The position numbers and the translations under genes were made by a program. A stretch of DNA of 62,502 nt, the filler included, from Collodictyon triciliatum (Eukaryota), in NCBI GenBank assembly GCA_043381765.1. It is 18 parts of 18 records of this genome, joined end to end, with 100 filler letters (N's around TTAATTAATTAA, not from the genome) between each part and the next. Parts side by side here need not be neighbours in the genome. Positions count along the whole stretch, not along the records: positions 41,805 to 45,172 come from JBHJMP010007419.1; 17 more parts are not named here. One strand, given 5' to 3'. Under the pieces are notes generated by a model, which was given only the letters and a program-made list of their open reading frames with translations, searched no databases and was not told the DNA's origin. Each line of letters starts with the position of its first letter. Position 1 is the stretch's first letter. This document shows positions 44,697-45,172 of this stretch, piece by piece.

Positions 44697-45172
44697 TTAA
44701 AATATCTTTCTTGAGTATTTATTGGCGCTGTTAAAGTCCCTTGTCAAGAATATACTTTGTTTGCTTTCTGAGCGATTGCATTATTTACATATGAGACATC
44801 TATACACCTTTTTCTTTGAATTTCCTTTCAATTTCATTAATTCCAGTTCTTTTTCGCAGTTGCAACACATCTTGAGGTTTTTAATTCATCTACACTAACT
44901 TTTTCAAAATGTTTGGATAGTGTTTTTCGTAATCCACTTCTGATTGTTGCCATAAAATGTTTCATCGGAGATTTTCTGTTCCAGTCTCCATACGCCAGTA
45001 CAACATCCTTGCCAAATGTCTTTTCGATTCAGTCCATACACAACTGTTCACTTCTTCTTGTATTAACATACTGTCTCCATCTCATCTTTCGAAAAGTTAC
45101 GTGTTCATAAAATCTGGATAATTTTATCTGGTATCTTGATTTCATAGATACATAATCTCGAGAATTTTTTAA
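44697..45172 (-). pseudogene. Fanzor1-type (TnpB-related) RNA-guided nuclease, decayed C-terminal portion
   Basis: Manual translation: RFYEHVTFRKMRWRQYVNTRRSEQLCMD*IEKTFGKDVVLAYGDWNRKSPMKHFMATIRSGLRKTLSKHFEKVSVDELKTS[fs]MCCNCEKEL...VYRCLICK*C...IFLTRDFNSA. This shows YGDW, the RuvC-II DExxTS motif, a CxxC/CxxC zinc finger and the RuvC-III RDxNxA motif. Stops at 45029-45031 and 44781-44783; frameshift near 44872. Confidence 0.88.

What the first reader, a model, noticed from the sequence alone, without database searches (positions are those of the whole stretch)
44697..45172. Hidden Fanzor1 RNA-guided nuclease remnant missed by the ORF track
Seen: the minus strand, read through two stops and a 1-nt frameshift, gives FRKMRWRQY...VLAYGDW...VDELKTS...CCNC...CLICKxC...RDFNSA with no introns, although the host genes are intron-rich. 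Known: GDW, a rearranged RuvC-II DExxTS, two CxxC pairs and RDxNxA form the C-terminal architecture of Fanzor1 OMEGA nucleases of eukaryotic transposons and giant viruses. Inference: this protist has carried a Fanzor family, possibly virus-delivered, and intact copies may exist elsewhere. The TGA could derive from CGA by CpG deamination.
Basis: partly seen in the sequence, partly recalled or inferred. Interest (0 to 1): 0.85.

Follow-up and report, generated by a model that had tools for sequence, protein, structure and literature searches.

The report
Decayed Fanzor1 nuclease gene fragment
This is the broken tail end of a Fanzor1 gene, an RNA-guided DNA cutter carried by jumping genes, sitting at the edge of a small contig; it is a real but ordinary fossil whose closest complete relatives lie in giant-virus genomes.

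Summary
Minus strand 45172 to 44697 reads, through a TGA, a 1-nt frameshift and a TAA, as the C-terminal third of a Fanzor1 protein. Part A alone hits 1048 proteins at E<=1e-3 (best 1.3e-28). All 3 of its PDB matches are Fanzor1 structures. The closest full-length relative, P0003, aligns to the contig at E 7e-36 and to Spizellomyces Fanzor1 at 9e-37. 13 of 14 highly conserved family positions in the covered part are kept.

The gene starts at a contig edge, so the N-terminal ~440 codons are absent from the data, not shown deleted.

Other copies in public runs read Arg (CGA/AGA) and Glu (GAA) at the two stops. A guide-RNA-like scaffold follows at 44668-44538. All labelled kin are Tc1/mariner-type elements in giant-virus contigs. 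Virus delivery fits this but is unproven. It is a new member of a known kind, of low interest.

The parts
44873..45172 (-). Fanzor1 fragment, frame A. It runs from the contig edge to the KTS of the relocated-Glu motif and includes YGDW (Gly at the old RuvC-II Glu site) and VDELKTS.
45029..45031 (-). In-frame TGA. All 4 contigs of run X1 that cover this place read Arg instead: CGA in 2 contigs (depth 73.3 of 97.7) and AGA in 2 contigs (depth 24.3).
44870..44875 (-). Site of the 1-nt frameshift between frame A and frame B.
   Evidence: Overlap of the two tblastn segments of P0003 and P0004
44724..44873 (-). Fanzor1 fragment, frame B: C4 zinc finger (CCNC ... CLIC) and RuvC-III motif RDFNSA.
44781..44783 (-). 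In-frame TAA. Most other copies read GAA (Glu): 11 contigs in X1 (depth 287 of 350) and 4 contigs in X2 (depth 32.3 of 32.3).
44697..44723 (-). Decayed tail after NSA, up to the TAA at 44699-44697. The family's conserved tail (NIxxLAxxWLxxxxRPxxFxR) is not recognisable in any frame.
44538..44668 (-). Guide-RNA (omegaRNA)-like scaffold of three stem regions. Its 3' limit, and so the element's right end, is uncertain (somewhere in 44538-44585).
   Evidence: The covariance model built from 4 viral loci scores 19 bits here, against 9.2 for the next best hit in the window. The fold has z -2.98, and 0 of 200 shuffles fold as well. Read depth stops at about 44540.
45173..45272 (.). Artificial spacer (N44, TTAATTAATTAA, N44) marking the contig boundary. 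It is not genomic sequence.
41805..44537 (.). Flank of the same contig, not part of the repeat. It has low depth in the runs and an (AAT)n tract at its end. One joint in run X1, 42316-42479, has GT..AG ends on the minus strand.

Best explanation
The segment is the 3' third of one decayed copy of a multi-copy Fanzor1-bearing DNA transposon, most likely of the Tc1/mariner (DDE_3) type. It lies in the nuclear DNA of a freshwater eukaryote and was assembled only up to a contig end. Intact relatives encode a ~630-690-aa RNA-guided RuvC endonuclease. Its guide-RNA scaffold is transcribed from the 3' end of the gene and the transposon's right end, with the guide read from the flank. This copy cannot make the protein: it has a TGA, a 1-nt frameshift, a TAA and a lost C-terminal tail. 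It still keeps a recognisable scaffold-like RNA fold. Shown: family membership, the lesions, sense codons at both stops in other copies, and viral full-length kin with TIRs, a transposase and a covarying 3' RNA. Inferred: the transposon type of this copy, that the scaffold is or was a guide RNA, the host as a protist, and any link to a virus.
For: Part A hits Fanzor1 structures only: 3 of 3 PDB matches at E<=10 (Parasitella 5.5e-5, Spizellomyces 9.4e-5, Guillardia 0.39). There are 1048 library proteins at E<=1e-3, and 73 of the 150 listed are 550-1050 aa with the match near their C-terminus. P0003 (634 aa) matches Spizellomyces Fanzor1 over residues 14-607 at 9.2e-37 and matches the contig in two frames at 7e-36. 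A profile of 40 full-length hits scores 2.5e-102, 4.7e-96 and 2.3e-82 on the three Fanzor1 structures; the next hit is 5e-3. 13 of 14 positions that are >=90% conserved in the covered part are kept, including G496, E530, T533, S534, R580 and D581. This fits the published rearranged active site (PMC10530073, passages) and the published family motif (PMC3627910, passages). Depth in X1 is 37-216 over 44540-45172 and 0-7 over the rest of the contig. 63 X1 contigs and 33 X2 contigs are laid at 90-99% likeness, with sense codons at both stops. The model of the viral 3' RNA gives one outlier hit, on the expected strand and directly after the gene. The viral relative L008 has perfect 32-nt TIRs 3316 bp apart, a DDE_3 plus HTH ORF and the Fanzor1 ORF.
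Against: Pfam and NCBIfam see nothing significant in the two pieces on their own, and part B alone has no significant PDB hit. The RuvC-I Asp, the left end and any transposase are not in the contig. No independent contig bridges the element into this copy's flank, so the junction rests on one assembly. The RNA model was built from only 4 sequences (effective number 1.11) and its E-values are rough. A plain DNA alignment of the 3' region to the viral loci is unconvincing. One X1 record departs from the window at 44583, inside the predicted scaffold. The frameshift could be an assembly error.
Confidence: 0.82

Rival explanations
1. The contig is not host DNA. It would be a piece of a giant-virus genome, or of a giant virus integrated in the host, and the Fanzor1 element would be a resident of that virus.
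For: All labelled close kin are in IMG/VR giant-virus contigs. P0003 has 88% and 80% identical copies on contigs of 57-254 kb. 386 of 392 motif matches in viral contigs are confirmed relatives. The fragment sits in a 16-row group that includes 3 viral rows, inside an 89-row clade with 67 viral rows. The two records that could be searched both carry NCLDV capsid genes.
Against: The 2.7-kb flank has no ORF with a family match (the one ORF tested), an (AAT)n tract and a joint with GT..AG ends. These features fit a eukaryotic nucleus better. The element's depth is far above the flank's, as expected for a dispersed repeat. The viral rows in the tree were picked by likeness to P0003, and the other rows carry no label, so the viral majority is partly built in.
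Confidence: 0.12
2. The gene is intact in the organism. On this view the stops and the frameshift are assembly or sequencing errors, or sense codons under a variant genetic code.
For: 13 of 14 conserved positions are kept. There are only three lesions. The assembly is very fragmented. Other copies are open at both stop positions.
Against: Two independent substitutions each create a stop, and the conserved tail is lost in all frames. A 243-residue kinase domain (E 4e-49) and ORFs up to 941 codons are open under the standard code in the same window. Relatives have Arg and Glu at the two stop positions, not the residues that known reassignments would give.
Confidence: 0.05
3. The match is a chance resemblance, or an unrelated zinc-finger protein.
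For: Part B alone gives only weak zinc-finger hits (best E 0.48).
Against: E 1.3e-28 in 1.84 billion proteins and 7e-36 colinear over both frames. All family-specific positions are kept.
Confidence: 0.01

Closest known systems
Solved Fanzor1 nucleases: Spizellomyces punctatus (8gkh), Parasitella parasitica (9cf0), Guillardia theta (9cer)
   Same: The fragment has the same C-terminal architecture. Gly replaces the canonical RuvC-II Glu in a GDW/GNW motif, the relocated Glu sits in DExxTS 34 residues later, and a C4 zinc finger and the RuvC-III RD follow.
   Different: Identity is only about 25-30% in the aligned part. The window copy is broken and lacks everything upstream of the last ~160 residues. 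No activity can be expected from it.
Fanzor1 carried by Tc1/mariner elements of giant viruses and protists (PGv-1, PUl-1 and relatives; Bao and Jurka 2013, PMC3627910, passages read)
   Same: The closest full-length relatives found here are TIR elements in giant-virus contigs, with a DDE_3 plus HTH transposase ORF and a Fanzor1 ORF (L008: 32-nt perfect TIRs, 3316 bp). The fragment meets the paper's motif [TS][TS]-x-x-C4-x(5,50)-RD and its Fanzor1-specific Gly and Glu.
   Different: For the window copy itself no TIR, target duplication or transposase can be seen.
Fanzor elements of an integrating giant virus that are mobile in its green-algal host (cited in the review PMC13359090; one passage read)
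   Same: A host-borne Fanzor copy whose nearest kin are virus-borne.
   Different: Here no integrated virus, no recent mobility and no direction of transfer is shown.
Fanzor2 and prokaryotic TnpB
   Same: Same superfamily: a RuvC fold, a zinc finger and a guide RNA at the 3' end of the element.
   Different: The family profile finds no Fanzor2 or TnpB chain at E<=1 in the PDB. Only two TranC chains appear, at about 5e-3 to 7e-3 over the last ~35 positions. Pfam Cas12f1-like_TNB is reached by only 4 of 10 full-length relatives tested, 2 of them over the cut-off.

Membership tests
Fanzor1 | Significant sequence similarity to established Fanzor1 proteins, stronger than to Fanzor2 or TnpB | tested here: met
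   All 3 PDB hits of part A are Fanzor1. P0003 bridges the fragment to Spizellomyces Fanzor1: E 7e-36 to the contig and 9.2e-37 to the structure. The family profile scores 1e-82 to 1e-102 on Fanzor1 and finds no Fanzor2 or TnpB.
Fanzor1 | RuvC-I Asp (DPGK in this family) | not testable with these tools
   It would lie about 125 codons upstream of the contig edge at 45172 (D372 in P0003). No genome is held.
Fanzor1 | Canonical RuvC-II Glu replaced by an inert residue, with an alternative conserved Glu downstream | tested here: met
   The Gly of YGDW aligns with invariant G496, and the Glu of DELKTS with invariant E530, 34 residues on. The rule comes from PMC10530073 and PMC3627910.
Fanzor1 | [TS][TS]-x-x-C4 zinc finger | tested here: met
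   TS, then CCNC and CLIC, aligned with P0003's CCRC and CLVC. The 1-nt frameshift falls between TS and the first Cys.
Fanzor1 | RuvC-III RD motif within 5-50 residues of the zinc finger | tested here: met
   RDFNSA lies 15 residues after the last Cys pair and aligns with R580, D581 and N583.
Fanzor1 | Open reading frame able to give a protein | tested here: not met
   TGA at 45031-45029, frameshift at 44870-44875, TAA at 44783-44781, and the tail lost. The sequence is a member by descent, not a working gene.
Fanzor1 | Structured guide-RNA scaffold that overlaps the 3' end of the gene and ends at the transposon's right end | tested here: inconclusive
   The viral kin have 47 predicted pairs, 12 of them with compensatory changes, and conservation stops abruptly at the TIR. 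The model hits the window once, at 19 bits and rough E 7.7e-4. The fold has z -2.98. No RNA data were available.
Fanzor1 | Residence in a eukaryotic-type transposon (TIRs, target duplication, transposase) | not testable with these tools
   The left part lies beyond the contig end, and the right end is not resolved (44538-44585). This feature was met only in the viral relatives L008, L010 and L012.
Fanzor2 / TnpB | Closest similarity to IS607-type Fanzor2 or prokaryotic TnpB; Pfam OrfB/Cas12f1-like domains over the cut-off | tested here: not met
   Pfam and NCBIfam give no significant hit on the pieces. No Fanzor2 or TnpB structure is reached by the piece or by the profile.

The most novel reading that the evidence does not exclude
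The fragment would be one fossil of a still active, possibly transcribed Tc1/mariner-Fanzor1 family that moved between lake giant viruses and this freshwater protist. The host copies open at both stop positions and the near-identical viral elements would then give a natural pair in which to study virus-host traffic of an RNA-guided nuclease. The decayed copy might also still supply a guide-RNA scaffold in trans.
Probability: 0.25. Interest if true: 0.4.

Novelty: new member of a known kind. Interest (0 to 1): 0.2.

Why it matters
The fragment adds one more lineage to the long list of eukaryotes with Fanzor1 elements. With the read data, it shows a diverged multi-copy family whose nearest labelled kin are giant-virus transposons. 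That fits the idea, in print since 2013, that viruses spread Fanzors, but it does not test that idea. The fragment itself is dead and incomplete, so it has no direct use as a nuclease. The practical lesson is that the window is a chain of unrelated contigs, so no inference should be drawn from 'neighbouring' genes.

Tried and rejected
- Pfam and NCBIfam on the two pieces gave no significant family; the only row was DpdJ at E 1.9.
- The PDB search with part B alone gave only weak zinc-finger hits, best E 0.48.
- The search of the window's own genome could not run, because no genome is held.
- The word-indexed protein search found nothing among longer proteins and only P0002 among near-length proteins.
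- Rfam gave no hit on the contig at E<=1 or on the whole window at gathering score.
- No other copy lies in the other 17 contigs of the window.
- The repeat search of the contig gave only A/T-rich low-complexity pairs and no TIR.
- An HMM of the conserved C-terminal tail matched no frame after NSA. By eye, frame B or another frame might continue weakly, but I reject that as unsupported.
- The MAFFT alignment of the window's 3' region to the viral scaffold was unconvincing.
- A variant genetic code was considered and rejected.
- The 40-sequence alignment was too diverse for a viral scan, so single proteins and an 8-sequence alignment were used.
- Expression: no RNA holder is listed for the stretch. 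Run X1 is only guessed to be RNA, so the high summed depth on the element is not taken as expression.
- Earlier notes of this scan held nothing by place or by sequence.
- The fragment was not assigned to a Fanzor1a-d subfamily.

Full report
**What is in the sequence**

On the minus strand, frame A runs from 45172 to 44873. It reads as one colinear protein segment interrupted by a single TGA (45031-45029), and carries FRKMRWRQY, AYGDW and VDELKTS. One base out of frame, frame B runs from 44873 to 44700. It gives CCNC, CLIC, an internal TAA (44783-44781) and RDFNSA, and ends at a TAA at 44699-44697.

**The window is not one piece of genome**

It holds 17 spacers of the form N44-TTAATTAATTAA-N44, which split it into 18 segments of 3365-3391 bases in falling order of length, with G+C from 31 to 45%. 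The finding lies in segment 41805-45172, and its reading starts at the very last base of that contig. The missing N-terminal ~440 codons are thus simply not in the data. The long Gln-rich ORF 'upstream' (45813-48639) belongs to another contig.

**What it is**

- Pfam and NCBIfam do not recognise the two short pieces.
- Against the PDB, part A has three matches at E<=10, and all three are Fanzor1: Parasitella 5.5e-5, Spizellomyces 9.4e-5, Guillardia 0.39. Part B alone is not significant.
- Against 1.84 billion representative proteins, part A finds 1048 at E<=1e-3 and 200 at E<=1e-10. Of the 150 listed, 73 are 550-1050 aa, with the match lying at about 70-85% of their length.
- The best full-length hit, P0003 (634 aa, 46% identical), matches Spizellomyces Fanzor1 over residues 14-607 at 9.2e-37. 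It aligns to the contig in two frames at 7e-36, ending at NSA near 44724.
- A profile of the first 40 of the 73 full-length hits (A1) scores 2.5e-102, 4.7e-96 and 2.3e-82 on the three solved Fanzor1 proteins. The next entries are two TranC chains near 5e-3. No Fanzor2 or TnpB chain appears at E<=1.
- In that alignment the family has DPGK (D372), invariant G496 in YGDW, invariant E530 and T533 in DExxTS, and R580-D581.
- Added to the alignment, the window fragment keeps 13 of the 14 positions that are >=90% conserved from residue 440 on. Only N587 in the tail is lost.
- This is the published Fanzor pattern. The canonical RuvC-II Glu is replaced by Gly or Pro, and an alternative, essential Glu lies some 45 residues on (PMC10530073, passages). 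Here the spacing is 34 residues.
- It is also the 2013 family motif [TS][TS]-x-x-C4-x(5,50)-RD, with the Fanzor1-specific Gly and Glu (PMC3627910, passages).

**Is it broken?**

- There are two stops and one frameshift in about 150 codons.
- After NSA, the family's conserved tail cannot be found in any frame.
- A variant code is unlikely. A 243-residue kinase domain (E 4e-49) and ORFs up to 941 codons are open under the standard code in the same window.
- The nearest database relative, P0002 (84 aa, 79% identical), itself leaves the window's frame after 66 residues. It too looks like a decayed copy.

**Other copies**

No genome is held, and the other 17 contigs hold no copy. Public runs help here. 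On contigs of run X1 (organism coded A) and of freshwater metagenome X2, 63 and 33 contigs are laid at 90-99% likeness. Summed depth is 37-216 (X1) over 44540-45172 and 0-7 over the rest of the contig.

- At the TGA, all 4 X1 contigs that cover it read Arg: 2 read CGA and 2 read AGA.
- At the TAA, 11 X1 contigs (depth 287 of 350) and 4 X2 contigs (32.3 of 32.3) read GAA.
- The element is therefore a diverged multi-copy family, and both stops are late, copy-specific changes.
- These are summed contig depths, not copy numbers, and they do not show whether the copies sit in a cell or in a virus.
- Pieces identical to the non-repeat flank occur in X2, X3 and X4 (151-269 nt, 0 mismatches). The organism or a close relative is therefore present in freshwater samples.

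**Relatives in giant viruses**

- P0003 has copies of 88% identity on a 254-kb contig and of 80% on contigs of 57-173 kb in IMG/VR. P0012 has one of 92%.
- One motif pattern from an 8-sequence alignment matched 392 viral stretches. 386 were confirmed as relatives, and 80 were kept as loci.
- Of five loci whose records I asked for, two are held. Both carry NCLDV major capsid genes over the Pfam cut-off.
- I built a FastTree of the C-terminal region (180 columns, 201 rows). The rows were 82 of 87 viral loci and 137 of 168 proteins with a segment of at least 140 residues, plus P0001, P0002 and the window, after removal of duplicates.
- In that tree the window joins P0002 (support 99) and then P0001 (98). 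This trio is sister (90) to 13 rows that include L008, L009, L012 and the P0003 and P0004 clusters. All of these lie inside an 89-row clade (95) with 67 viral rows.
- Caveats: the viral rows were chosen by likeness to P0003, the protein rows carry no label, the tree is unrooted and the fragment is short. This shows kinship with virus-borne elements, not the direction of transfer.

**How the intact relatives are built**

- L008 has perfect 32-nt TIRs at 637-668 and 3921-3952, which makes the element 3316 bp. It has a 346-aa ORF with DDE_3 (1.3e-13) and HTH_28 on one strand, and the 634-aa Fanzor1 ORF on the other.
- L010 and L012 have 33-nt and 31-nt TIRs. This is the Tc1/mariner-with-Fanzor1 layout described in 2013.
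- In L008, L009, L010 and L012, the last ~100 nt of the ORF and ~50 nt beyond it are more conserved than the coding sequence needs. Conservation stops exactly at the TIR end.
- RNAalifold predicts 47 pairs there, 12 with compensatory changes. This is what is expected of the guide-RNA scaffold.

**The same RNA in the window**

- A covariance model of those four sequences gives one full-length hit in the contig, at 44668-44538 on the minus strand, at 19 bits and E 4e-5.
- Over the whole window it remains the only outlier, at E 7.7e-4, and the next best hit scores 9.2 bits. E-values from this short calibration are rough.
- The first hairpin is an 11-bp stem whose sequence differs from the viral one.
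- The stretch folds into three stem regions with z -2.98, and 0 of 200 shuffles fold as well.
- Depth in the runs ends at about 44540, although one X1 record departs at 44583.
- I therefore extend the feature to about 44538 and leave the exact right end open.

**Verdict**

This is a real Fanzor1 remnant, a new member of a known kind. It is cut by a contig end, recently inactivated, and followed by a probable fossil guide-RNA scaffold. Virus-host traffic of such elements is already in print (PMC3627910; PMC13359090, one passage). The work of Saito et al. 2023 is cited here only through PDB titles and passages of other papers; I did not read it. Supplements that list known Fanzor1 elements and subfamilies were closed, so I cannot say whether this clade is already catalogued.

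Noticed in passing
window 1-62502: The window is an artificial chain of 18 contigs of 3365-3391 b, in falling order of length and with G+C of 31-45%. They are joined by 17 spacers of N44-TTAATTAATTAA-N44. Adjacency between segments means nothing.
   Followed up: yes
L008:637-3952; L010:668-3949; L012:1162-3904: These giant-virus contigs carry complete TIR elements of 2.7-3.3 kb with perfect or near-perfect 31-33-nt TIRs. L008 has a DDE_3 plus HTH transposase ORF divergent from a Fanzor1 ORF. The right TIR forms the end of a conserved, covarying 3' RNA structure.
   Followed up: partly
IMG/VR viral contigs (loci L008-L087): A single 10-residue motif pattern around YGDWS..QM matched 392 stretches in viral contigs, and 386 were confirmed as Fanzor1 relatives. 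This Fanzor1 clade is very common in giant-virus metagenome bins, although the papers read here describe Fanzor1 as mainly eukaryotic.
   Followed up: partly
protein P0004: One source names this 378-aa Fanzor1 fragment '6-pyruvoyl-tetrahydropterin synthase'. That looks like a wrong annotation.
   Followed up: no
window 42316-42479 and 43457-43618: Contigs of run X1 skip these stretches. The first has GT..AG ends on the minus strand, as an intron would, which suggests a spliced minus-strand transcript downstream of the element. The second has 3 other letters at the joint, and its ends do not fit.
   Followed up: no
window 45813-48639 (another contig): A minus-strand ORF of more than 940 codons with long Gln runs and repeated PYQQ- and SNSNPVTQQ-type units. 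Its C-terminal 295 residues have no Pfam family.
   Followed up: partly
window 11447-12580, 38887-40113, 50993-51550: Open frames with a protein kinase domain (4e-49), NHL repeats (6e-18) and a peptide deformylase domain (1e-23). The first shows that the standard code is in use.
   Followed up: partly
window 41805-41900 and 45273-45390: Contig ends are made of microsatellites: (AAT)n at one, and (CT)n with (CA)n at the other. These are a likely reason why the assembly breaks there.
   Followed up: no
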